Virus record (IMG/VR): IMGVR_UViG_3300005529_000001
Location: 1-16,881 of that record
Strand: one strand, 5' to 3'
Source of the DNA: a virus
Length of the DNA stretch: 16,881 bases
In this document: one piece after another, positions 4,197 through 16,881 of the stretch
Layout: each line of letters begins with the position of its first letter
Position numbering within the stretch: the first letter of the stretch is position 1
Notes under the pieces: model-generated
Told to the model about the DNA's origin: nothing
Databases searched by the model: none
Seen by the model: the letters and a program-made list of their open reading frames with translations, nothing else
Position numbers and translations under genes: made by a program

Positions 4197-4586
4197 TCAG
4201 AGCAGCGGTAAGTGTCCGGTGATCTTGTCGAGCTCTTCGACCTTGCACGGGCCGAAAGCAGCGCAGGTCAGGGTGGGGACACCATGGAACTCTGTCTTAC
4301 CGGCATCGATGATCGGGTGGACTTCGATGTCAGCTAGCTCTGCTCTGAAGATGAGGTCACGCAGTTCCTCTTCGCTGCCACAGCGGACGACAGCCTTGGT
4401 GAACGACCCGGACAGGAGCCACTGAGCCTCTTCAAGCGAGAGCTTGACAACGATCTCATCGCCACGCTCGCTTTCGTTGTTGTCAACGAGGAACTTCATT
4501 GCGGCGTGAGCACCTTGGGCGATCATCTTGCCCTTACGCATGTTCAGATCGGTGCGTACAACGATGACTTGCTTCACGTCGCTCAT
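4197..4586 (-). CDS. pth2: peptidyl-tRNA hydrolase, PTH2 family
   Basis: MSDVKQVIVVRTDLNMRKGKMIAQGAHAA... and C-terminal ...IIDAGKTEFHGVPTLTCAAFGP...ITGHLPLL match the PTH2 fold signature. ATG at 4584-4586 is preceded by GGAGGT with 5-nt spacing. The N-terminal extension in the ORF track reads through tRNA-Val(GAC). Confidence 0.85.
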   Translation of the reverse strand: MSDVKQVIVVRTDLNMRKGKMIAQGAHAAMKFLVDNNESERGDEIVVKLSLEEAQWLLSGSFTKAVVRCGSEEELRDLIFRAELADIEVHPIIDAGKTEFHGVPTLTCAAFGPCKVEELDKITGHLPLL

Positions 4587-4630
4587 AGCTACCTCCAGGT
4601 TTTCAAAGAACGCCACGTCCGAAGACGTGG

Positions 4631-4702
4631 TGACCCGTGTTGGATTCGAACCAACGACCACCTGCTTGTCGAGCAGGTGCGCTACCGCTGCGCCAACGGG
4701 CC
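4631..4702 (-). tRNA. tRNA-Val(GAC)
   Basis: T-arm 4639-4655. Acceptor 4632-4638 vs 4696-4702 with one G-U. Anticodon loop TCGACAA. CCA at 4628-4630. Confidence 0.8.
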
Positions 4703-4751
4703 TTGAAGAAGGTGTGTCCAGGTTCATGGTACACCTTCAAGTAAGTATCGA

Positions 4752-5147
4752 TCAGGTCTGGCGACTGTCTGCACCCGGGCGTTTCGAGCGTTCCTCTGCC
4801 CGACGGTCCTTGGCCTTCAGGCGCCCACCTGTCACCGTTTCGGGCGCTTCCGTGACCTGAACCGGGGTTGCATCCTTCGAAGCTTCCCTGGCTTTTCTGG
4901 TGGGCTTGGAGGGGTTGTCGATCAGGTCCTGGAGCCGAGCGCGTTGGGCCTTAGCCCCGACGCCCTTGCCCAGCCGCGAATCGAGCGCAGCAAGCTGAGC
5001 CTTCGGGCTCAGGGCTGACCACACCCCCTGTCGCTCCTTGGCTTCCTTGCGCCGGAGCTCGATGTTGGCCGGGTTGTGGCGTCGCCCGCCGACGCCCGGG
5101 TAACGTCGCTTCGAGTTGTCCTTCTTGCCTGACTTCGTGCTTTCCAT
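4752..5147 (-). CDS. hypothetical highly basic protein
   Basis: 131-aa K/R-rich ORF. ATG at 5145-5147 is preceded by GGAAGG 7 nt upstream. Sits in a GC-rich region where other frames are also open. Confidence 0.45.
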   Translation of the reverse strand: MESTKSGKKDNSKRRYPGVGGRRHNPANIELRRKEAKERQGVWSALSPKAQLAALDSRLGKGVGAKAQRARLQDLIDNPSKPTRKAREASKDATPVQVTEAPETVTGGRLKAKDRRAEERSKRPGADSRQT

Positions 5148-5150
5148 GTG

Positions 5151-5375
5151 TTACCTTCCGTATGTTGGGTCCTGGTGATCGAGATCGCGAGGGTTTCTTG
5201 CGGGAGGGCTTGGGCACACAGGGGCGACGTAGACGTACTTGTCTTCGACCTCGTGCGTGCATGGGTCACGTCGAGGCGTCTTGGGGATGTCCCACTCGCC
5301 AACGCAACCCACCAACGACGCCAACAACACGGCCCAAACGAGCGTCCGCATGGTGGAATCGTACCACTGCAACAT
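5151..5375 (-). CDS. small secreted or lipoprotein-like protein
   Basis: Start ATG at 5373-5375 (or 5349-5351). The N-terminus has a hydrophobic signal-like segment (VWAVLLASLVGC). The upstream ORF extension overlaps tRNA-Arg(UCU). Confidence 0.35.
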   Translation of the reverse strand: MLQWYDSTMRTLVWAVLLASLVGCVGEWDIPKTPRRDPCTHEVEDKYVYVAPVCPSPPARNPRDLDHQDPTYGR

Positions 5376-5389
5376 CACGCTTTCACTTG

Positions 5390-5464
5390 TACCCCCGACA
5401 GGATTCGAACCTGTATGTTTCCGCTTAGAAGGCGGATGCCTAAGTCCGTTCGCGCCACGGGGGC
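5390..5464 (-). tRNA. tRNA-Arg(UCU)
   Basis: T-arm acagg/attcgaa/cctgt. Acceptor has a G1-U72 wobble. Anticodon stem tccgc/gcgga with loop CTTCTAA. D-arm could not be folded cleanly by eye. Confidence 0.6.
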
Positions 5465-5596
5465 ATTTCACACGTTCACCTACAGTCCATCGCGGGAATT
5501 GCACCCGCACCCCCTGGATTTCAGCCAAGTGTGCTACTGTTACTACCAGACGGCTCAGAGACCCGCTCCGTTAGGAGCTTTGGGTTACTGGTGTGG

Positions 5597-5669
5597 TCTC
5601 ACCGGCGAGAGTCGAACTCGCGGCTTTCACCTTCGGAGGGTGACACTCTGTCCACTGAGTTACGGTGAG
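5597..5669 (-). tRNA. tRNA-Arg(CCG)
   Basis: T-arm 5605-5621. Acceptor ctcaccg vs cggtgag. Anticodon loop CTCCGAA. CCA at 5594-5596. Confidence 0.8.
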
Positions 5670-5765
5670 ATGTCGGGATCTTTCAACTGTTGCCGGACTC
5701 GCACCGGTTGAGCGACTCTTTGATGCGCCTCGTCTTAGTTGATCGTTTACTGGATCCCTGTTTGG

Positions 5766-5839
5766 TCTCCGAGGAGGGATTCGAACCCCCGACGTCCGCC
5801 TTAGGAGTGCGGCATTCTGTCCAGCTGAATTACTCGGAG
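5766..5839 (-). tRNA. tRNA-Arg(CCU)
   Basis: T-arm 5774-5790. Acceptor ctccgag vs ctcggag. Anticodon loop CTCCTAA. CCA at 5763-5765. Confidence 0.75.
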
Positions 5840-5987
5840 AGTTTTGCCGGATCATCGCCCGGTCGCTTACTCTTAATGTTGTGACCTCTTGTGGAATGGA
5901 TCAACACGTTACCAACATCGCATTTCACATTCACCTATGTGGGTACAAACCACTGCGACGGGCGAACCCGCCATCGGACTTCAGTTG

Positions 5988-6659
5988 TTACTTGGCGATG
6001 TCTTTGATGAAGCGAGGGTAGTGCTCGTCATGGACGGCTTTCAGCTTCGCTTGCAAGTCTTGGAACCTACCCTCAAATGGTTCCAATTTCTCGCTCTTTT
6101 CGAAGATCTTGCCGCCTTCAGTCAGGTATGCTTGGACCTCATCGTAGAAAGTCTTCTCAGTGTAACCCTTAGCGAACAGGACCTCACGCATCAGGTCCAA
6201 CAACTCCGGGTCCGTCATGTGGATGATACCCAGGCACCGGTCGCGGTAGCTGTGGTCAAGGTAGAACATCGCATGTGTCATCTCGTGGACATCAAGCACC
6301 CCATCATCCATGACACCGATCAGATATGCTTCACGAGTCTCCATCTTGATGAGACGGTAGATCGCATACATCAGCTGGTCATACTGGTTTGGGTCCTCTA
6401 GGCCCATGTCAAACACCTGTTTGATGACCTCGACCGGGATGTTGAAACCGCCCCAATCACCCGAGGCATAGCTGAAGTGCCCGTCTTCGCCTTGTTCTTT
6501 TGAGTACCACGTCATGAACTCAGCGATCGTGAACTTCTTGTCATGGTACCGTGGGCTCTCGTAGAACTCCTGGTAGCGCAAGAAAGTCATGCACATCTGG
6601 AACGAGTCGTTGAAACGTAGCTCGTAAACTCCTTCGCGAAGCTTGCTGAATTTGAACAT
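5988..6659 (-). CDS. HExxH motif protein (putative zinc metallohydrolase)
   Basis: About 223-aa ORF starting at ATG 6657-6659. Contains VLDVHEMTHAMFYLDH (HExxH...H). Family not recognised by eye. Confidence 0.55.
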   Translation of the reverse strand: MFKFSKLREGVYELRFNDSFQMCMTFLRYQEFYESPRYHDKKFTIAEFMTWYSKEQGEDGHFSYASGDWGGFNIPVEVIKQVFDMGLEDPNQYDQLMYAIYRLIKMETREAYLIGVMDDGVLDVHEMTHAMFYLDHSYRDRCLGIIHMTDPELLDLMREVLFAKGYTEKTFYDEVQAYLTEGGKIFEKSEKLEPFEGRFQDLQAKLKAVHDEHYPRFIKDIAK

Positions 6660-6785
6660 GGTTGTAGGTGATTGACGTTCACCTCTTCGGAGTTTCACCG
6701 ACTTCGCGTACTCACCCAGCCTTAAAAGCGACCGAGCTTTCGACTGCCGATCCCGGCGAGTTTATGTTGGTTACTCTGTCAATCG

Positions 6786-6868
6786 TACCGACGAAGGGAT
6801 TCGAACCCCCACGCCCTTGCGGGCACTGCGACCTGAACGCAGCGTGTCTACCGTTCCACCACGTCGGC
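6786..6868 (-). tRNA. tRNA-Leu(CAG), type II
   Basis: T-arm 6794-6810. Acceptor has a G1-U72. Variable-arm hairpin gccc/gggc. Anticodon stem ctgcg/cgcag with loop TTCAGGT. Confidence 0.7.
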
Positions 6869-6883
6869 GTGGCTACACTCTAC

Positions 6884-7438
6884 TTAACCCTCTTCTCGTT
6901 TGCACTCATCACGGACCTCCATGAGGATGCGTCCGAGCCAGTTCGAACCCTTCCCGCGGCAAACGCCCCAGAACGTGTCATTCCACCAGTTGCCCTCAAC
7001 GAGCTTTGCATCACCCGTTGCCAGCAACATCGCTCGGAATAACGGGTTCTTGAACTTCTCCTGGACGAGCTGGCGCATCAGAGCGACTTTTGTCGATTCC
7101 CAATCACGGGGGAGCGAAGCTGCCTTGCCTAATTTCTTAGCTTCTCCAGGCGTCTTGGCGTTCCTAACCAGCTCGTGCCCACTGCCTTCTTTGCCAAACT
7201 TGAAAGCTTGGTATGCGTGTTCGACTGACGGGTAACGTAGACCGTTGACCCAGATCGATGACTCGTGGAAGTTGCTCAAGAAACCGAAGTCACCCCTGAA
7301 GGAGTCAATCACCGTCTCCGAGATCAAAGTCTCTGATGTCCGCGGGAGGGTCGGGAGCTGGGGTTGCTGATGGTCCACCTTCGTTGATGCTTCGTTTGAT
7401 GGCAGCGATGAGTTCTTCGGTTTGTCGTTGTTGCTCAC
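6884..7438 (-). CDS. NADAR (YbiA/DUF1768-like) domain protein
   Basis: FRGDFGFLSNF...YPSVEHAYQAFKF...TPGEAKKLGK...TGDAKLVEGNWWNDTFWG...GSNWLGRILMEVR is a near-textbook NADAR signature. The ATG at 7438 has a strong GGAGG SD but overlaps the upstream gene by 134 nt. A GTG at 7310-7312 is an alternative start. Confidence 0.75.
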   Translation of the reverse strand: MSNNDKPKNSSLPSNEASTKVDHQQPQLPTLPRTSETLISETVIDSFRGDFGFLSNFHESSIWVNGLRYPSVEHAYQAFKFGKEGSGHELVRNAKTPGEAKKLGKAASLPRDWESTKVALMRQLVQEKFKNPLFRAMLLATGDAKLVEGNWWNDTFWGVCRGKGSNWLGRILMEVRDECKREEG

Positions 7439-7982
7439 GTTCGTCCTCCGGGATGATGTGATTGATCGCGTAATAGAAGAGTGAACTGAAACCGGGAGCG
7501 TACTCTTCGAGCTCCGCTTCGAAGTAATTGCAACGCTTCAGAGCAGCTGCGGCTTCACGTGGGTTGCCCAAGTCAAACCTGACCAATGCAGGTTGGCATC
7601 GCTTGATAACTCGCCAGTATGCCGCGGCAGCATCATCAAACGCGTAAAACGCGCGGTACCAGTGCTTGTCACCCTTGTTGAAGTAGGTGGGTTGGTCTAC
7701 AGATGTCGGCCCAACGTTGCCCAAGTTGTGGTTGTATGATGCTCGCCCAGCTGCGTTCTCAAACGCTACCTGACCCCAGGCCATCGCAAGACGGTTCTTG
7801 CTGGGGTAGCTGCCAAAAACTTTCAGGTGACCGTCACGCAACGCTTGCAGCAGCTCCAGTTGAGTTAGTGGCGTCTTCACCGTTTCTACGTGTTCTCGCT
7901 TGGGTGGCTCCGCTTGTGCAGATCCGAGAGTGCAGCTGAACACAACAGTGATCAACGCGAAGAGCTTCTTCGCCCGGGACAT
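7305..7982 (-). CDS. secreted peptidoglycan hydrolase, glucosaminidase (GH73/FlgJ-like) family
   Basis: N-terminal signal peptide (MSRAKKLFALITVVFSCTLGSAQA). AMAWGQVAFENAAGRASYNHNLGNVG resembles the glucosaminidase catalytic region. Confidence 0.55.
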   Translation of the reverse strand: MSRAKKLFALITVVFSCTLGSAQAEPPKREHVETVKTPLTQLELLQALRDGHLKVFGSYPSKNRLAMAWGQVAFENAAGRASYNHNLGNVGPTSVDQPTYFNKGDKHWYRAFYAFDDAAAAYWRVIKRCQPALVRFDLGNPREAAAALKRCNYFEAELEEYAPGFSSLFYYAINHIIPEDEREQQRQTEELIAAIKRSINEGGPSATPAPDPPADIRDFDLGDGD

Positions 7983-7999
7983 TGACTCAATCTACTAAG

Positions 8000-13951: not shown

Positions 13952-14022
13952 AGCTGGCGAAGGGATTCGAACCCTCACAGGCCTGCTTACGACGCAGGAG
14001 CCCACCGTTGGGCGACACCAGC
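13952..14022 (-). tRNA. tRNA-Thr(CGU)
   Basis: T-arm aaggg/attcgaa/ccctc. Acceptor has one U-G. Anticodon stem cctgc/gcagg with loop GTCGTAA. Confidence 0.7.
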
Positions 14023-14026
14023 AATC

Positions 14027-14100
14027 ACACGATCTGAGGACTCGAACCTCACCTCCCCTTGCATGCCGGGCAACCCGCCCATGTACGATTCGAACGTACC
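14027..14100 (-). pseudogene. two tandem tRNA 3'-half-like fragments (T-arm plus 3' acceptor strand) without matching 5' acceptor strands
   Basis: Canonical T-arms tgagg/actcgaa/cctca (14035-14051) and gtacg/attcgaa/cgtac (14083-14099). No complementary 7-mer was found within tRNA distance for either. A small 4-bp/3-nt hairpin typical of a variable arm lies between them. Confidence 0.3.
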
Positions 14101-14143
14101 AACAACTAGACGGGGCACATGCACCAGCGCACCCATCGCGTGG

Positions 14144-14215
14144 TCAGGGTGGTGGGACTCGAACCCACGGCCTCGTCCATCCGAGGGACGCCGTCTGCCA
14201 CTGACTTACACCCTG
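14144..14215 (-). tRNA. tRNA-Pro(CGG)
   Basis: T-arm gtggg/actcgaa/cccac. Acceptor cagggtg vs caccctg. Anticodon stem CGTCC/GGACG with loop CTCGGAT. CCA at 14141-14143. Confidence 0.75.
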
Positions 14216-14528
14216 AAATCATCGACCGTCCGATCGCCTCGGCGAGGATATCACCCCTCACACCTGCTCACGTCAGTCACGTTGTTCCGTCACAAGGCTC
14301 AGCAGCTAGCTAGGCCGCCTCAACACCCTGGCGGGAGTTTACCCGCATGCGCTGTTGCTCTGATCGCCGTAAGGCAGCGCACCGTCTTTCCCCCGAATAA
14401 GGAACTGTCTGATCGGAGTACGGACGACGTTACGTTTCCGCGTGCATCGGACCTGACCAGCTCCCGTTGCCAGTGCCTTTCCCCGAGCCAGGGATGGGCT
14501 TTCAGCCACGTGACGGTAGGACGGTCGA
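14216..14528 (-). ncRNA. candidate structured non-coding RNA with RNase P RNA-like sequence patches
   Basis: 313-nt tRNA-free, ORF-poor spacer. Its minus-strand sense contains GGTAAACTCC (identical to a conserved RNase P RNA segment), GAAAGCCCATCC, CACTGGCAACGGGAGC, GGGGGAAAGACGGTGCG and GACGGAAC in the same order as in rnpB. It lacks the P4 GGAAAGTCCGG / ACAGAACCCGGCTTA pairing. A long-range 7-bp pairing GTCACGT / ACGTGAC exists. Confidence 0.3.
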
Positions 14529-14531
14529 TGG

Positions 14532-14607
14532 TCAGCGTAAGAGGATTCGAACCTCCGACCTCGTGCACCCCAAGCACGCGCTCTAAACCAGGCTGAGCTA
14601 TACGCTG
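14532..14607 (-). tRNA. tRNA-Pro(GGG)
   Basis: T-arm agagg/attcgaa/cctcc. Acceptor cagcgta vs tacgctg. Anticodon stem cgtgc/gcacg with loop TTGGGGT. Canonical D-arm. CCA at 14529-14531. Confidence 0.8.
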
Positions 14608-14737
14608 ATACGTTCTTCACAGTCTCCACCTCAGTAGGCGTCAGCCAAACACCGTGAGGTGGGCCGCTCCAGACGCTTCTTCGGGTATTCCCTTAGAGAG
14701 GCGTCAAACCTGAGGAACGCAGAGTCTGTTTGTTTCG

Positions 14738-14810
14738 TGGGAAAGGAGGGACTCGGACCCTCGATCTTCTCCGTGTGAGAGAGCTGTTCTTGCCGCTGAA
14801 CTACATTCCC
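14738..14810 (-). tRNA. tRNA-Val(CAC)
   Basis: T-arm gaggg/actcgga/ccctc. Acceptor has one U-U mismatch. Anticodon loop CTCACAC. Anticodon stem 4 pairs plus a wobble. Confidence 0.55.
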
Positions 14811-14836
14811 GAAGATTGAAGCCTCCTTGGCTTCCG

Positions 14837-14910
14837 TCGGAGCGGTCGGATTTGAACCGACAACATCTTGCACCCAAAGCAAGTGCACTACCGGATTGTG
14901 CTACGCTCCG
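14837..14910 (-). tRNA. tRNA-Pro(UGG)
   Basis: T-arm gtcgg/atttgaa/ccgac. Acceptor CGGAGCG is Pro-like. D-stem GCAC/GTGC. Anticodon stem cttgc/gcaag with loop TTTGGGT (G37). Confidence 0.8.
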
Positions 14911-15104
14911 TTTTTCTGTCTTCTGCCGGGCGTCTCTGCCGGCTTGCCGTTTTCAACCCCTATGGGGGCACGGCAATCGAAACGGCAGCACTCCTGTGGT
15001 AGACGTGAGGCCGCCGACGCTTGAGCGCCGTGGTTCACTTCTGCCTAATAGGATGCTCGACATCATGACGAATGATCTCGTTTCGTTTGTTCGGCTTTCG
15101 CCGG

Positions 15105-15179
15105 TGACCCTGGGGGGATTCGAACCCGCCATTTCCACCGTGAGAGGGTGGCTGCCTTAGCCGTTAGCAAGACAGGGCC
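15105..15179 (-). tRNA. tRNA-Glu(CUC)
   Basis: T-arm ggggg/attcgaa/cccgc has one mismatch. Acceptor has one G-U. Perfect anticodon stem ccacc/ggtgg with loop CTCTCAC. Confidence 0.6.
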
Positions 15180-15249
15180 GTGTAGAACCATACTCTAGGT
15201 GGTGGTCGCCGCTTGTTTCACAACTTTTTGCACTTTTTTCGTGTGTGAA

Positions 15250-15606
15250 TCAAACGGTCTCTTCAAGGTCATCAAGGATGCCGCCCCATTGCGGGTACAC
15301 AGCGTCGACGTCAACGCCCATCTTCCGGAGCTTTTTCTGGTTGCTCCTGATGACCTGACGAGCCCAACGTTTCATGAACGACTGCGAGTGAGCCGAGCTA
15401 GACTCTGTTGACTGGGCGATGATGACCTTGCCGTTGCTGTCCTTGACGGTTGCTGTCAGCTGCCACGTTGCGCTAAGGAACAACGCAATCGTCTTGTCTT
15501 CGATCTCCAGCGTAGCGCTGCCTGGCATCCTCTTTGTCGAGGGAGGCGGGTCTTCGTCGATCAGATCGTCTAGCTCAAGCTCTTCGAAACTTCCGAACCC
15601 ACTCAT
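15250..15606 (-). CDS. hypothetical protein
   Basis: 118-aa ORF with ATG at 15604-15606. The antisense plus-strand ORFs are S-rich low-complexity. Confidence 0.45.
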   Translation of the reverse strand: MSGFGSFEELELDDLIDEDPPPSTKRMPGSATLEIEDKTIALFLSATWQLTATVKDSNGKVIIAQSTESSSAHSQSFMKRWARQVIRSNQKKLRKMGVDVDAVYPQWGGILDDLEETV

Positions 15607-15624
15607 TGTTGTGACCCTTACGTA

Positions 15625-15888
15625 TCAGTTGATCTGAGCGTAACGGTACCACACTTTTCCCTCATCGGTGCTCCAAACCCGGCTGTGACCGGGACTGGCA
15701 CCGAGTTCAGGTGGGATGTTGGGCCATTCAAGAGCAATAGCCCACCGGTTTTCGGTCGGGACAAAAGCACAGTCAGAGACGATCGCGGTGGCATAGCGTT
15801 GCAGGTTGCCACCGACAACGACACGCTCACCCTTCTGGACGGGCGGGTTCATGTCTTTACGGTACCACTGACAGGCACCATCCTTCAC
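15625..15888 (-). CDS. hypothetical protein (GTG start)
   Basis: 87-aa ORF beginning 12 nt after the stop of the upstream gene. Confidence 0.35.
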   Translation of the reverse strand: MKDGACQWYRKDMNPPVQKGERVVVGGNLQRYATAIVSDCAFVPTENRWAIALEWPNIPPELGASPGHSRVWSTDEGKVWYRYAQIN

Positions 15889-15900
15889 TCGACGTTGCCC

Positions 15901-16152
15901 TCAGACAACTTCAAGGAACGCGCCGAAGGCCCAACCCCCGCCGTGAGGGCCCAACACATAGACGCTACCCCCGTCGCTTCTCTCAATCGCGATGACCAAC
16001 GCAACCTCTCGAGTCTCAAGACGGCTGATGCGCCGGGGCAACACATCACCAGCCATTGGCCGTGCGCCGCCCGGAACGCTGAAAAGGTCTATGGGCTCAT
16101 CGAGCCAGCTGACTGGCTTCACCAGCTGGCCTGCTTTGAAGATCCCGCTCAT
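15901..16152 (-). CDS. hypothetical protein
   Basis: 83-aa ORF. ATG at 16150-16152 is preceded by GAGGACGAGG. Confidence 0.4.
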   Translation of the reverse strand: MSGIFKAGQLVKPVSWLDEPIDLFSVPGGARPMAGDVLPRRISRLETREVALVIAIERSDGGSVYVLGPHGGGWAFGAFLEVV

Positions 16153-16354
16153 CCTCGTCCTCGAACATCAGATCAAGTAGGTACATCAGGTGTTCCCCGT
16201 TGTCACCGTCGCCTCCCGACTTGAAACAAAAAGAGTCATTACCCTCTTCGTAGTCAAGCTTTTTGATAGCTTCGTAGATCTTGATTGACCTTGGATCGTG
16301 TGGGACCCCGTTCTCCCAACGCTCGTTGATCCTATCTCTCTTCTTTTTGGTCAC
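16097..16354 (-). CDS. hypothetical protein (GTG start, overlaps both neighbours)
   Basis: 85-aa K/E/D-rich ORF. Overlaps the downstream gene by 56 nt and the upstream gene by 23 nt. Confidence 0.25.
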   Translation of the reverse strand: MTKKKRDRINERWENGVPHDPRSIKIYEAIKKLDYEEGNDSFCFKSGGDGDNGEHLMYLLDLMFEDEDERDLQSRPAGEASQLAR

Positions 16355-16682
16355 GTTGCCCCCTCAACGATCCGAGCATCCACTCCTCAATGGGTAAGTG
16401 CTGGAGCCAACGCTCTAAGGTTGGGATGAAACCAAGGTCTTCGACGACATGATCTTCACCGATGTCACGAACGCTGACACGTTTGCCATCACTGTTGGTG
16501 ATGTTGTGCCCAAACTGCTGCTCCAACAAGAAGATGCCAAAGCTGGAGTGGAGGATGGCACGGTGGCGCATGTCAGGTAGCGCCGACTTCGTCTGGTCAA
16601 ACCAGTCGTGAAGAGCGACGTAGTCTTCGGGTTTGCCGCCCCACTTCTTTGCCGAGTTTTTGGCGTGTTGCCAGGGCTTCAC
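16332..16682 (-). CDS. conserved-looking hypothetical protein
   Basis: 116-aa ORF (…HAKNSAKKWGGKPEDYVALHDWFDQTKS…). GTG start at 16680-16682 overlaps the stop of the upstream small ORF. Confidence 0.45.
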   Translation of the reverse strand: MKPWQHAKNSAKKWGGKPEDYVALHDWFDQTKSALPDMRHRAILHSSFGIFLLEQQFGHNITNSDGKRVSVRDIGEDHVVEDLGFIPTLERWLQHLPIEEWMLGSLRGQRDQKEER

Positions 16683-16870
16683 GTTGCCGCAGGCGGACCG
16701 GGCGGGTCTTTCTTGTTGTCCTGATCGTTTCGCTCATGCGCAAGCGCCAGGTGCAAGATGTGCCACGCTTCCACGCCCTCGGTCAGGATGCGAAGCGAGA
16801 TCCACATGATCGAGATCAGAAAGAGAAGGGACAGCGATTGTTCGCGGTGACCCGAGCAGTTTCCGACCAT
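16679..16870 (-). CDS. small hydrophobic protein
   Basis: 63-aa ORF with one predicted TM-like segment (LSLLFLISIMWISLRIL). Its upstream region is outside the window. Confidence 0.3.
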   Translation of the reverse strand: MVGNCSGHREQSLSLLFLISIMWISLRILTEGVEAWHILHLALAHERNDQDNKKDPPGPPAAT

Positions 16871-16881
16871 GCCAAAGACAA

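What the first reader, a model, noticed from the sequence alone, without database searches (positions are those of the whole stretch)
14216..14528. Second, ORF-free structured-RNA candidate with scattered RNase P RNA-like segments
A 313-nt gap between tRNA-Pro(CGG) and tRNA-Pro(GGG) has no credible ORF. The ORFs called there contain T-arm-derived GSNP peptides. Read on the minus strand it contains GGUAAACUCC (10/10 identity with a conserved RNase P RNA stretch). It also contains GAAAGCCCAUCC, CACUGGCAACGGGAGC, GGGGGAAAGACGGUGCG and GACGGAAC in the order found in rnpB. It lacks the P4-forming GGAAAGUCCGG / ACAGAACCCGGCUUA pair present in the bona fide copy at 11030-11388. It could be a decayed second rnpB, a divergent or minimal RNase P-like RNA, or an unrelated regulatory RNA.
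Basis: partly seen in the sequence, partly recalled or inferred. Interest (0 to 1): 0.55.

Follow-up and report, generated by a model that had tools for sequence, protein, structure and literature searches.

The report
New structured RNA in phage tRNA array
The 313-base gap between two proline tRNA genes encodes a roughly 310-nucleotide, intricately folded non-coding RNA found only in a small clade of very large soil phages; it is not RNase P RNA and matches no described RNA family, so it looks like a new class of large viral RNA whose job is still unknown.

Summary
The gap 14216-14528 is real, ORF-free and lies between tRNA-Pro(GGG) and tRNA-Pro(CGG). Their likeness to RNase P RNA is at chance level. 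No Rfam family, including every RNase P model, matches even at E<=10.

The region is still a genuine structured RNA gene. Seven further distinct homologues (71-92% identical) were found in related large-phage contigs, always single copy and on the tRNA strand. It is the only inter-tRNA spacer conserved full length in all six relatives compared. A structure-blind MAFFT alignment gives 90 base pairs, 32 with compensatory double changes and 98% of cells paired. Slid controls give 2-9 such pairs.

The fold has an 18-bp terminal stem, ten further helices, a consensus kink-turn, and a loop-loop tertiary pairing whose variable pair takes all four Watson-Crick forms. The 5' end of the terminal stem abuts the 3' end of a tRNA in 7 of 7 complete copies. 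A tRNA follows within 5-8 nt in 4 of 8.

Best reading: a new stable RNA cut out of the polycistronic tRNA transcript by tRNA-processing enzymes. Its niche resembles GOLLD/ROOL and the T4 species 1/2 RNAs. Its function is unknown.

The parts
14221..14529 (-). Whole structured RNA, from the first to the last base pair of the terminal stem P1 (about 309 nt). The covariance-model match spans 14214-14530.
   Evidence: CM R1 scores 343.8 bits on the minus strand. In L012 the opposite strand scores only 10.5 bits against 336.4. Homologues were found in 7 other distinct contigs. Structure. Coordinates.
14512..14529 (-). P1, 5' strand (AUCGACCGUCCUACCGUC). It begins inside the encoded CCA of tRNA-Pro(GGG).
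   Evidence: 18-bp helix. 6 pairs show compensatory changes and 96.6% of cells are paired. The arms were seen as inverted repeat I4. Junction sequences.
14221..14238 (-). P1, 3' strand (GGCGAUCGGACGGUCGAU). Five nucleotides (GAUUU) separate it from the first base of tRNA-Pro(CGG).
14503..14508 (-). J1/2 segment UGGCUG, within the nearly invariant stretch GUGGCUGAA. It could form a 6-bp pseudoknot with loop L9.
   Evidence: Invariant in all 8 sequences. It is complementary to L9 UAGCUA. Because nothing varies, covariation cannot test this pairing, and by my own estimate about three such matches are expected by chance.
14480..14494 (-). P2 hairpin (UCCCU GGCUC GGGGA).
   Evidence: Invariant among the first 7 sequences. 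One compensatory U-A to A-U change appears in L087.
14449..14477 (-). P3 hairpin (GGCACUGGCA.CGG ... CUGGUCAGGUCC), almost invariant in sequence.
   Evidence: The helix is predicted but has no covariation, because it does not vary. Its 3' strand holds the 11-mer GGUCAGGUCCG that is shared with E. coli 4.5S RNA.
14426..14444 (-). 5' strands of the long-range helices P4, P5 and P5a, which enclose the inner multi-helix domain.
   Evidence: P4/P5 has 4 pairs with compensatory changes. P5a gains a C-G to U-A change in L087.
14269..14291 (-). 3' strands of P5a, P5 and P4, including the conserved joining segment GAACA.
14384..14425 (-). P6 arm (three stacked helical segments).
   Evidence: 4 pairs with compensatory changes, e.g. 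CC/GG changing to GG/CC at alignment A4 columns 116-117 with 139-140.
14347..14382 (-). P7 hairpin with a 23-nt loop L7. Loop bases 14361-14364 (AUCA) pair with L10.
   Evidence: P7 has 2 compensatory pairs. The L7-L10 pairing is NUCA with UGAN'. N-N' reads AU, GC, GC, AU, UA, CG, CG across 7 sequences, and CG in L087.
14331..14346 (-). P8 hairpin (GCGGG UAAACU CCCGC).
   Evidence: 3 pairs with compensatory changes in 8 sequences.
14293..14330 (-). P9 arm. It has a kink-turn-like internal loop (GUUGA at 14320-14324 opposite GA at 14299-14300) and the terminal loop CUAGCUA (UAGCUA at 14307-14312).
   Evidence: 8 of its 12 pairs show compensatory changes in the 8-sequence alignment, and one pair takes 5 pair types. 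The G-A/G-A dinucleotides and the 3-nt bulge are conserved. The kink-turn assignment is made by consensus only. UAGCUA is invariant and palindromic.
14241..14263 (-). P10 hairpin. Loop bases 14250-14253 (UGAU) pair with L7.
   Evidence: 3 compensatory pairs in the stem.
14529..14607 (-). Upstream tRNA-Pro(GGG), whose 3' end abuts P1. It probably supplies the signal that creates the RNA's 5' end.
   Evidence: ARAGORN and Rfam tRNA, 62.6 bits. A tRNA (Pro-GGG in 4 copies, Val-CAC in 3) abuts P1 with no spacer in 7 of 7 complete copies.
14141..14215 (-). Downstream tRNA-Pro(CGG). RNase P cleavage at its 5' end would leave the RNA with a 5-nt 3' tail.
   Evidence: A tRNA starts 5-8 nt after P1 in 4 of 8 copies: window, L004, L012 and L043. 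In the other four it starts 115-845 nt after the element.

Best explanation
The gap is the gene for a new, roughly 310-nt, highly structured non-coding RNA. It is carried in the tRNA array of a small clade of large (up to at least 369 kb) environmental phages.

Shown:
- It is transcribed from the tRNA strand.
- It folds into a closed architecture. An 18-bp terminal stem P1 pairs the two ends and encloses hairpins P2, P3 and P10.
- P1 also encloses a long-range stack, P4-P5-P5a, which carries four arms, P6 to P9.
- A loop-loop pairing between L7 and L10 ties the fold together.
- P9 carries a consensus kink-turn.

Inferred:
- The RNA is made as part of the polycistronic tRNA transcript.
- Its 5' end is created when the abutting upstream tRNA is cut at or just after its discriminator base. 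This would be an RNase Z-type cut, because the third nucleotide of the encoded CCA/CCG is paired in P1 and covaries.
- Where a tRNA follows, its 3' end is created by RNase P cutting 5-8 nt downstream of P1. The enzyme could be the host's or could use the phage's own rnpB. Elsewhere the 3' end would form by trimming back to P1.
- P1 then protects both ends, giving a stable trans-acting RNA.

Guess:
- It is a folded scaffold or catalytic RNA serving the phage's translation, tRNA and RNA-repair takeover programme. The neighbouring genes encode a release-factor-like protein, PTH2 and an RNA ligase, and a phage RNase P RNA lies nearby.
- It occupies the same niche as GOLLD, ROOL and the T4 species 1/2 RNAs.

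It is not RNase P RNA and not a decayed copy of it.
For: Real gene under selection:
- It is the only inter-tRNA spacer of the array conserved over its full length in all six relatives compared, with 93-100% coverage at 75-93% identity. Most other spacers do not align in the distant relatives.
- There are eight distinct sequences, 71-92% identical.

Structure:
- On a structure-blind MAFFT alignment, RNAalifold finds 90 pairs, 32 with compensatory double changes.
- 98.2% of 620 cells are paired, against 36-45% when partners are slid.
- 28 pairs carry double changes, against 2-8 in the slid controls. 0 of 500 shuffles reach the observed values. The result is the same on the model-based alignment.

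Tertiary pairing:
- In L7 NUCA with L10 UGAN', the variable pair is AU, GC, GC, AU, UA, CG, CG, and CG in L087.
- Only 2 of 315 highly variable unpaired column pairs keep pairing in all sequences. This one is the only pair that is all Watson-Crick, and it sits next to three invariant complementary pairs.

Strand and RNA level:
- About nine pair positions are G-U in most or all sequences.
- In L012 the opposite strand scores 10.5 bits against 336.4.

Non-coding:
- Stops interrupt every frame in one homologue or another, and substitutions show no codon periodicity.

Not a known family:
- No Rfam hit at E<=10 in the window copy. In L043 the only hit is a chance-level 18-bit match.
- ARAGORN finds no tmRNA.
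- No match in 50,697 phage records or in plasmids.

Processing:
- A tRNA abuts P1 in 7 of 7 complete copies although its identity changes between Pro-GGG and Val-CAC.
- A tRNA starts 5-8 nt after P1 in 4 of 8 copies.
- No sigma-70-like promoter and no minus-strand terminator-like site lies in 12000-16881.
- A full-length class A RNase P RNA lies at 11028-11385 (267 bits).

Phage origin:
- The source contig is 369.5 kb.
- The relatives are IMG/VR viral contigs of up to 309 kb.
- Neighbouring proteins match PHROG families.
Against: - There is no expression or end-mapping data. Transcription, the exact ends and stability are all inferred.
- The eight sequences fall into about three subclades, so the compensatory changes are fewer independent events than counted cells.
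- P3 has no covariation support and P2 has only one covarying pair.
- The J1/2-L9 pseudoknot rests on invariant bases, and by my own estimate about three such matches are expected by chance.
- In 4 of 8 copies no tRNA directly follows the element. In L003 a roughly 230-aa ORF follows. RNase P therefore cannot be the universal 3'-end maker.
- The function is not shown by anything here.
- The public collections could only be scanned with exact patterns, so the true spread of the family is unknown.
- A 2023 catalogue of about 10,000 candidate viral RNAs (PMC10690425) could not be checked for this motif, because no supplement is held.
Confidence: 0.8

Rival explanations
1. A decayed second rnpB, or a divergent or minimal RNase P-like ribozyme.
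For: - GGUAAACUCC is identical to E. coli M1 RNA 229-238, and GACGGAAC is shared with the window's rnpB.
- The size (about 310 nt), the long terminal stem and the multi-helix fold are RNase P-like in a general way.
- It sits in a tRNA array, which is full of RNase P substrates.
Against: - No RNase P model of Rfam matches at E<=10 in the window copy or in a divergent homologue. The true rnpB scores 267 bits.
- The shared 10-mer and the local alignment scores are at chance level: 43/300, 45/300 and 61/300 shuffles.
- One quoted motif is not conserved in relatives. Another is a covarying local hairpin.
- The conserved regions I and V that form P4 are absent, and the helix order differs.
- The sequence is under selection for its own fold, so it is not decaying.
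Confidence: 0.02
2. A cis-acting element of the tRNA precursor rather than a free trans-acting RNA. It could be a self-cleaving ribozyme that cuts at its own 5' edge and so makes the 3' end of the abutting tRNA. It could also be a structured trailer that controls processing or stability of the neighbouring tRNAs.
For: - There is zero spacing between the tRNA 3' end and P1 in 7 of 7 copies, even though the tRNA identity differs.
- The size and the many invariant loop and junction nucleotides are typical of ribozymes.
- The phage clade invests heavily in tRNA maturation: its own rnpB and 35 tRNAs.
Against: - No known self-cleaving ribozyme model matches.
- A 310-nt fold is far larger than any known 5'-edge self-cleaver.
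- Ordinary tRNA 3' processing explains the junction without new chemistry.
- Only one tRNA of the 35 in the window has such a trailer.
Confidence: 0.08
3. A DNA-level feature: a miniature inverted-repeat mobile element, or a replication, recombination or packaging site marked by the 12-22 bp terminal inverted repeat.
For: - The terminal inverted repeat CATCGACCGTCC/GGACGGTCGATG bounds the gap exactly (pair I4).
- Inverted repeats bound by one protein could also co-vary.
Against: - It is single copy in every locus and always at the same place in the array.
- Nine internal helices also covary.
- About nine positions are G-U pairs, which only work in RNA of one strand. The opposite strand scores 10.5 against 336 bits.
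- No transposase gene is adjacent.
Confidence: 0.02
4. Degenerate spacer or tRNA-gene debris with no function, or a small protein-coding gene.
For: - Other gaps of the array do hold tRNA-like debris, e.g. 14023-14140.
- Others hold small ORFs, e.g. 12442-12573 and 13312-13650.
- The single-sequence folding z-score is only -2.2.
Against: - The element is conserved full length in all relatives, while most neighbouring spacers do not align in the distant relatives.
- 32 of its pairs covary.
- It has no tRNA or T-arm signal.
- Stops occur in every frame across the homologues, and indels shift the frames.
Confidence: 0.01
5. A protein-binding mimic of a host RNA, for example a decoy for the SRP protein Ffh or for a kink-turn-binding protein.
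For: - The near-invariant 3' strand of P3 carries GGUCAGGUCCG. This is identical to E. coli 4.5S RNA positions 43-53, the 5' strand of the Ffh-binding domain IV. Such a shared word appears in only 14 of 2000 shuffles.
- P3 is conserved in sequence rather than through covariation.
- P9 carries a consensus kink-turn.
Against: - The comparison was chosen after the fact.
- No SRP RNA model matches.
- The partner strand differs from that of 4.5S RNA. The nucleotides that would form the tetraloop and the 3' strand of domain IV are instead in the covarying helix P4.
- L087 has GGUCAGAUCCG, so the word is not strictly conserved.
Confidence: 0.04

Closest known systems
GOLLD and ROOL RNAs (Rfam families; large 'ornate' RNAs of phages and prophages)
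   Same: - They are large, multi-helix, covariation-supported non-coding RNAs of unknown function.
- They are encoded by phages and prophages, often near tRNA islands, and tRNAs are sometimes embedded in GOLLD (PMC12286853, read).
- Kissing loops are central to their folds. Here a covarying loop-loop pairing and a palindromic loop are present.
   Different: - No Rfam family, GOLLD and ROOL included, matches at E<=10.
- This RNA is about 310 nt. From my own knowledge ROOL is about 580 nt; GOLLD often exceeds 800 nt (PMC12286853).
- The secondary structure is different.
- So far it is known only from about 8 environmental large-phage contigs.
- Oligomerisation is not shown.
Bacteriophage T4 stable RNAs species 1 and species 2 (rnaC, rnaD) in the T4 tRNA gene cluster (from my own knowledge; no paper retrieved)
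   Same: They are non-tRNA stable RNAs encoded inside a phage tRNA cluster. They are co-transcribed with the tRNAs, released by the host tRNA-processing enzymes, and their function is still unknown.
   Different: - The T4 RNAs are about 120-140 nt and far simpler.
- No sequence relation is known or was tested.
- This RNA is more than twice as large and has a tertiary pairing and a kink-turn.
Bacterial RNase P RNA, class A (RF00010), e.g. the window's own copy at 11028-11385
   Same: - Similar length, a long terminal stem pairing the two ends, and a multi-helix core.
- The same array and the same strand.
- A 10-mer is shared with E. coli M1 RNA.
   Different: - No covariance-model match.
- Conserved regions I and V and the P4 pairing are absent.
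- The helix order is different.
- Sequence likeness is at chance level.
tRNA-punctuated non-coding RNAs: MALAT1/mascRNA, murine gammaherpesvirus 68 tRNA-miRNA units, plant tRNA-snoRNA dicistrons (from my own knowledge)
   Same: A neighbouring tRNA or tRNA-like fold is used as the signal for RNase P or RNase Z to create the end of another RNA. Here a tRNA abuts the 5' end in 7 of 7 copies.
   Different: Those are eukaryotic or eukaryotic-virus systems with unrelated cargo RNAs. Processing is inferred here, not demonstrated.
SRP 4.5S RNA, domain IV
   Same: An 11-nt identity, GGUCAGGUCCG, with E. coli ffs positions 43-53.
   Different: - It is a single-strand word only.
- The partner strand and the local structure differ.
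- No SRP model matches.
- The word is altered in L087.

Membership tests
RNase P RNA (RF00010, RF00011, RF00373 and the other RNase P models of Rfam) | Scores at or near the family covariance-model threshold | tested here: not met
   No RNase P match at E<=10 in 551-nt and 321-nt searches of the window copy, or in a 331-nt search of L043. The true rnpB scores 267 bits.
RNase P RNA (RF00010, RF00011, RF00373 and the other RNase P models of Rfam) | P4 long-range helix formed by conserved regions I (GGAAAGUCC) and V (ACAGAAnCCGGCUUA) | tested here: not met
   Neither sequence is present. The best match to region I lies in a stretch that is not conserved among homologues. The covariation-supported long-range helices P4-P5a are of a different kind.
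RNase P RNA (RF00010, RF00011, RF00373 and the other RNase P models of Rfam) | Sequence similarity above chance to bona fide RNase P RNAs, in colinear order | tested here: not met
   The longest shared word and the Smith-Waterman score fall within the shuffle distribution (43/300, 45/300, 61/300). The motif order is not colinear with the window's rnpB.
RNase P RNA (RF00010, RF00011, RF00373 and the other RNase P models of Rfam) | Cleaves pre-tRNA 5' leaders | not testable with these tools
   Needs a biochemical assay.
GOLLD / ROOL ornate phage RNAs | Match to the family covariance model | tested here: not met
   No Rfam family matches at E<=10. None reaches its gathering score anywhere in the window.
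GOLLD / ROOL ornate phage RNAs | Phage or prophage location near tRNA islands | tested here: met
   It lies inside a 35-tRNA array of a 369.5-kb phage-like contig. For the niche of GOLLD and ROOL see PMC12286853.
GOLLD / ROOL ornate phage RNAs | Homo-oligomeric assembly through kissing loops | not testable with these tools
   A palindromic invariant loop (UAGCUA) and a covarying loop-loop pairing exist. Whether any contact is between molecules cannot be told from sequence.
tRNA / tmRNA / tRNA-like | Cloverleaf or tRNA-like domain detected by ARAGORN or by the Rfam tRNA and tmRNA models | tested here: not met
   Nothing was called inside 14216-14528.
SRP RNA | Domain IV hairpin (GNRA loop with symmetric and asymmetric internal loops), and a match to the SRP models | tested here: not met
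   Only an 11-mer is shared. The downstream bases form the covarying helix P4 instead of the domain IV 3' strand. No model matches.
Kink-turn motif (structural module, not an RNA family) | Canonical stem, 3-nt bulge, tandem G-A/A-G pairs, then a non-canonical stem | tested here: met
   P9 reads ...GGU-GUU-GA-GG... opposite ...CU-GA-GCC.... The GA/GA is invariant in 8 sequences and the bulge is GUU or GCU. This is met by sequence consensus only; the kinked geometry is not shown.
Protein-coding gene | An open frame conserved among homologues, with codon-periodic substitution | tested here: not met
   Every frame carries stops in one homologue or another. Variable columns by position mod 3 are 38, 45 and 49 of 105 each.
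Miniature inverted-repeat transposable element | Multiple dispersed copies bounded by terminal inverted repeats | tested here: not met
   There is one copy per locus, at a fixed position. There is no paralogue in the window.

The most novel reading that the evidence does not exclude
The RNA is a new large ribozyme or a self-assembling RNA machine dedicated to tRNA metabolism in large phages. It might make the 3' end of the abutting tRNA by cleaving at its own 5' edge. It might act on tRNAs in trans alongside the phage-encoded RNase P RNA. Or it might oligomerise through its palindromic loop into a higher-order particle, as ROOL and GOLLD do.
Probability: 0.12. Interest if true: 0.9.

Novelty: categorically new. 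Interest (0 to 1): 0.68.

Why it matters
Large RNAs with elaborate, conserved folds are rare. Most of those understood so far are ribozymes or cores of ribonucleoprotein machines.

This one has about 100 supported or proposed base pairs, a kink-turn and a covarying tertiary contact. It matches none of the 4,227 Rfam families.

It sits in a translation and RNA-repair gene island of very large phages. That island holds 35 tRNAs, a phage-encoded RNase P RNA, a release-factor-like protein, PTH2 and an RNA ligase.

The RNA adds a third, much smaller member to the puzzling set of ornate RNAs that phages keep next to their tRNAs. Its size, about 310 nt, makes it suitable for structure determination and biochemistry.

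The novelty claimed is at the level of the RNA family. The niche itself, a stable RNA embedded in a phage tRNA cluster and probably released by tRNA processing, has precedents.

Tried and rejected
- RNase P: all Rfam models and direct comparison with E. coli M1 RNA and the window's rnpB. Rejected.
- Every other Rfam family at E<=10, including tmRNA, SRP, 6S, Y RNA/YrlA, group I/II introns, GOLLD, ROOL, raiA, OLE, HEARO and riboswitches. No hit in the window copy. The only hit in L043 is a chance-level 18-bit match to a 48-nt archaeal leader.
- Coding potential: rejected.
- Paralogues in the window or in 47 other loci: none.
- GenBank phages (near and distant modes) and plasmids: no match to the element.
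- GTDB genome scan with a two-block pattern: 34 hits, none of which is the element. Most belong to an unrelated conserved coding region, and the rest are chance.
- More distant relatives of the phage, found through the release-factor-like protein (L005-L008): no copy in the stretches held.
- SRP mimicry, suggested by an 11-mer shared with 4.5S RNA: interesting but not supported by structure, and not strictly conserved.
- Y RNA likeness (words such as GGUCCGAUG and GGUAG recalled from human Y RNAs): no model match, so not pursued.
- J1/2-L9 pseudoknot: kept only as a hypothesis, because both partners are invariant and chance complementarity of that length is expected.
- Literature: no paper was found on phage RNase P RNA or on this motif. 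The supplement of the viral candidate-RNA catalogue is not held.
Full report
**Setting.** The window carries 35 tRNA genes, all on the minus strand. It also carries a full-length bacterial class A RNase P RNA at 11028-11385(-), scoring 267 bits against a threshold of 100. An exact protein look-up places the window on a 369.5-kb metagenome contig (ENA ERZ27279688, k141_1055159) and on a 247-kb Logan contig. Neighbouring genes encode a short release-factor-like protein (PCRF and RF-1 domains, 196 aa), PTH2, a YspA/SLOG protein, NADAR, an RNA ligase and HNH endonucleases. Several of these match PHROG phage families. The closest relatives are IMG/VR viral contigs of 23-309 kb. The setting is therefore the tRNA and translation island of a very large environmental phage. 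I could not inspect structural genes, so "phage" rests on these indirect points.

**Checking the observation.** The gap 14216-14528 is bounded by tRNA-Pro(CGG) at 14141-14215 and tRNA-Pro(GGG) at 14529-14607. The minus-strand ORFs that reach into it start inside or upstream of the upstream tRNA, and one carries the T-arm-derived GGSNP peptide. All five quoted motifs are present. GGUAAACUCC is indeed identical to E. coli M1 RNA 229-238.

The likeness to RNase P does not exceed chance. A shared 10-mer arises in 43 of 300 dinucleotide shuffles. Local alignment scores against M1 and against the window's own rnpB lie within the shuffle distribution. The motif order is not colinear with the window's rnpB. 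Rfam searches at E<=10 return only the two flanking tRNAs, weak hits overlapping them, and in L043 one chance-level 18-bit match to a 48-nt leader. These covered a 551-nt stretch, the 321-nt element alone, and a divergent homologue.

**Homologues.** nhmmer and blastn against loci fetched through the release-factor-like protein found full-length copies in L004 and L003. Exact-pattern scans of IMG/VR and of the metagenome collection added L012, L040, L043 and L027 (the last cut at a contig end), and later L087, which is the same sequence as L088. This gives eight distinct sequences, 71-92% identical. Each is single copy, on the tRNA strand, and at the same place in the array.

No copy was found in 50,697 GenBank phage records or in plasmids. 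A pattern scan of one genome per GTDB species also found none. Its 34 hits are an unrelated coding region or chance. The collections could only be scanned with exact patterns. L087 was missed by the first patterns because two "invariant" blocks differ in it. The family is therefore probably wider than the eight sequences seen.

**Selection.** I compared every spacer of at least 60 nt and every tRNA between 10000 and 15200 with six relatives. The 313-nt gap is the only spacer that aligns over 93-100% of its length in all six, at 75-93% identity. Most other spacers do not align at all in the more distant relatives. No reading frame is kept, and the substitutions show no codon periodicity.

**Structure.** On a MAFFT alignment made without any structural information, RNAalifold predicts 90 pairs. 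With seven distinct sequences, 28 pairs carry compensatory double changes. With eight sequences the number is 32.

| Measure | Observed | Controls |
|---|---|---|
| Cells forming standard pairs (of 620) | 98.2% | 36-45% when partners are slid 1-3 columns |
| Pairs with double changes | 28 | 2-8 in slid controls |
| Shuffles reaching the observed values | 0 of 500 | |

The model-based alignment gives the same picture. The helices, with window minus-strand coordinates, are:

| Helix | Window coordinates | Notes |
|---|---|---|
| P1 | 14512-14529 with 14221-14238 | 18 bp |
| P2 | 14480-14494 | |
| P3 | 14449-14477 | |
| P4/P5/P5a | 14426-14444 with 14269-14291 | long-range stack |
| P6 | 14384-14425 | |
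| P7 | 14347-14382 | 23-nt loop |
| P8 | 14331-14346 | |
| P9 | 14293-14330 | |
| P10 | 14241-14263 | |

P1, P4-P5a, P6, P7, P8, P9 and P10 each have two or more covarying pairs. P2 has one, which is a U-A to A-U change in L087. P3 has none because it hardly varies. About nine pair positions are G-U in most or all sequences. In L012 the opposite strand scores 10.5 bits against 336.4. The structure therefore exists in RNA of the tRNA strand and not in DNA.

**Tertiary features.** I searched all pairs of unpaired, highly variable columns. Only 2 of 315 keep a standard pair in every sequence. One is L7 column 170 with L10 column 287 (numbering of alignment A4). It reads AU, GC, GC, AU, UA, CG, CG, and CG in L087. 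It sits directly next to three invariant complementary pairs (UCA with UGA). Together these form a 4-bp loop-loop helix.

P9 contains an internal loop that fits the kink-turn consensus: a canonical stem ending in U-G, a 3-nt bulge (GUU or GCU), tandem G-A/A-G, then a stem opening with G-U. The G-A dinucleotides are invariant. This assignment is by consensus only.

The P9 terminal loop carries the invariant hexamer UAGCUA. It is complementary to the invariant J1/2 segment UGGCUG, and it is also a palindrome. A kink-turn-assisted pseudoknot, or a contact between two molecules, are both possible. Neither can be tested on invariant bases, and chance complementarity of this length is expected.

**Ends and processing.** In all seven complete copies the first pair of P1 lies two nucleotides after the discriminator base of an upstream tRNA. 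That tRNA is Pro-GGG in four copies and Val-CAC in three. The nucleotide that would be the A of an encoded CCA is paired in P1. It changes with its partner (A-U in four copies, G-C in three). This suggests that the cut which separates the tRNA from the element falls at or just after the discriminator, as RNase Z does.

Downstream, a tRNA starts 5-8 nt after P1 in four of eight copies: Pro-CGG in three and His-GTG in one. In L040 and L027 a tRNA-like remnant follows. In L087 there are 121 nt before the next tRNA. In L003 a roughly 230-aa ORF follows.

No sigma-70-like promoter and no minus-strand terminator-like site was found in 12000-16881. This is weak evidence, because phage promoters may differ. 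I infer co-transcription with the tRNAs and release by tRNA-end processing, with P1 shielding both ends. None of this is shown experimentally.

**What it is not.** It is not RNase P RNA and not a decayed copy. It is not tmRNA, SRP RNA, Y RNA, an intron, GOLLD or ROOL, because no model matches. It is not a coding gene, a mobile element or neutral spacer. An 11-nt identity with E. coli 4.5S RNA (GGUCAGGUCCG, ffs 43-53) occurs in only 14 of 2000 shuffles. However, I picked that comparison after the fact. The local structure differs, and the word is altered in L087. I record it as a lead only.

**Comparison with known systems.** The niche matches that of GOLLD and ROOL, which are large, ornate RNAs of unknown function encoded by phages near tRNA islands (PMC12286853). 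From my own knowledge it also matches the T4 species 1 and 2 stable RNAs, which lie in the T4 tRNA cluster and are released by tRNA-processing enzymes. The use of a tRNA as an end-forming signal recalls MALAT1/mascRNA and the herpesvirus tRNA-miRNA units, again from my own knowledge. Membership in any of these families was tested where possible and was not met.

**Verdict.** The RNase P interpretation is wrong. The region encodes what appears to be a new family of large structured RNA. I give 0.8 to the statement that it is a new, independently folded stable RNA excised from the tRNA transcript. I give about 0.1 to cis-acting or ribozyme readings, and a few percent in total to everything else. 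Function remains unknown. Interest is 0.68. The covariation evidence is unusually clean and the context is striking, but only eight closely related sequences are known and no functional evidence exists.

Noticed in passing
window 11028-11385 (-): A full-length bacterial class A RNase P RNA (267 bits, model positions 1-367) lies inside the phage tRNA array. It is conserved at 85-92% in L003, L004 and L043. Only a handful of GenBank phage records match it at all, e.g. a partial unannotated match in the 274-kb Microcystis phage MaAM05. The huge- and jumbo-phage overview papers retrieved do not mention RNase P.
   Followed up: partly
window 14608-14736 (-): A 129-nt spacer upstream of tRNA-Pro(GGG) is conserved in L040, L003 and L004. 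It folds into a closed structure of about 110 nt with 38 predicted pairs, 9 of them with compensatory changes and few broken. No Rfam match. This is probably another small structured RNA.
   Followed up: partly
window 14911-15102 (-): A 192-nt spacer is conserved in L040, L004, L003 and L043, and partly in L012. It contains the invariant block GUCAUGAUGUCGAGCA and the hairpin CCCCAUAGGGG. RNAalifold finds 56 pairs, 8 of them compensatory, but more cells are broken. No Rfam match. This is a weaker RNA candidate.
   Followed up: partly
window 14023-14140 (-): A 118-nt module carries two T-arm-like hairpins (GUACGUUCGAAUCGUAC and GAGGUUCGAGUCCUC). No tRNA is called at normal stringency. Relaxed ARAGORN gives two overlapping poor models. 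It is conserved in L003, L040 and L027, and in L040 and L027 it sits directly 3' of the 310-nt RNA.
   Followed up: partly
window 13111-13234 (-): A T-arm-like sequence (AAGGGACTCGAACCCTTAC at 13133-13151, plus strand as written) lies in a 124-nt gap with no tRNA call (family D5). It could be a further degenerate or unusual tRNA.
   Followed up: no
window 12442-12573 (-): The spacer between tRNA-His and tRNA-Thr holds a small ORF of about 40 aa (MKMKNKLKLAAIVIAVIAGAVLYKNHH...). It has a hydrophobic stretch and is partly conserved in L003, L004 and L040.
   Followed up: no
window 13312-13650 (-): A 112-aa ORF fills the gap between tRNA-Cys and tRNA-Phe. It is conserved at 80-86% DNA identity in L003, L004 and L040 and has no PHROG match. 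Protein genes are interleaved with tRNAs throughout the array.
   Followed up: no
window 8929-9519 (-) and neighbours 4197-10073: The release-factor-like protein is only 196 aa (the end of a PCRF domain plus an RF-1/GGQ domain). By my own knowledge this is the size of PrfH-type ribosome-rescue factors. PTH2, a YspA/SLOG protein, NADAR, a Rit1/DUSP-like protein and an RNA ligase lie close by. Together they look like a translation-rescue and RNA-repair island.
   Followed up: no
window 14449-14459 (-), within P3: The 11-mer GGUCAGGUCCG is identical to E. coli 4.5S RNA positions 43-53, the 5' strand of SRP domain IV. It is seen in 14 of 2000 shuffles. It is invariant in 7 of 8 homologues and reads GGUCAGAUCCG in L087.
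   Followed up: yes
L012 8156-8251 (-): ARAGORN calls a 96-nt tRNA of undetermined identity with a four-base anticodon (gttc). It lies just upstream of the tRNA-Val that abuts the element.
   Followed up: no
L003 4032-4751 (+): In this relative a roughly 230-aa ORF is inserted between the 310-nt RNA and the tRNA-like module. The array is therefore rearranged by insertions while the RNA and its upstream tRNA junction stay intact.
   Followed up: no
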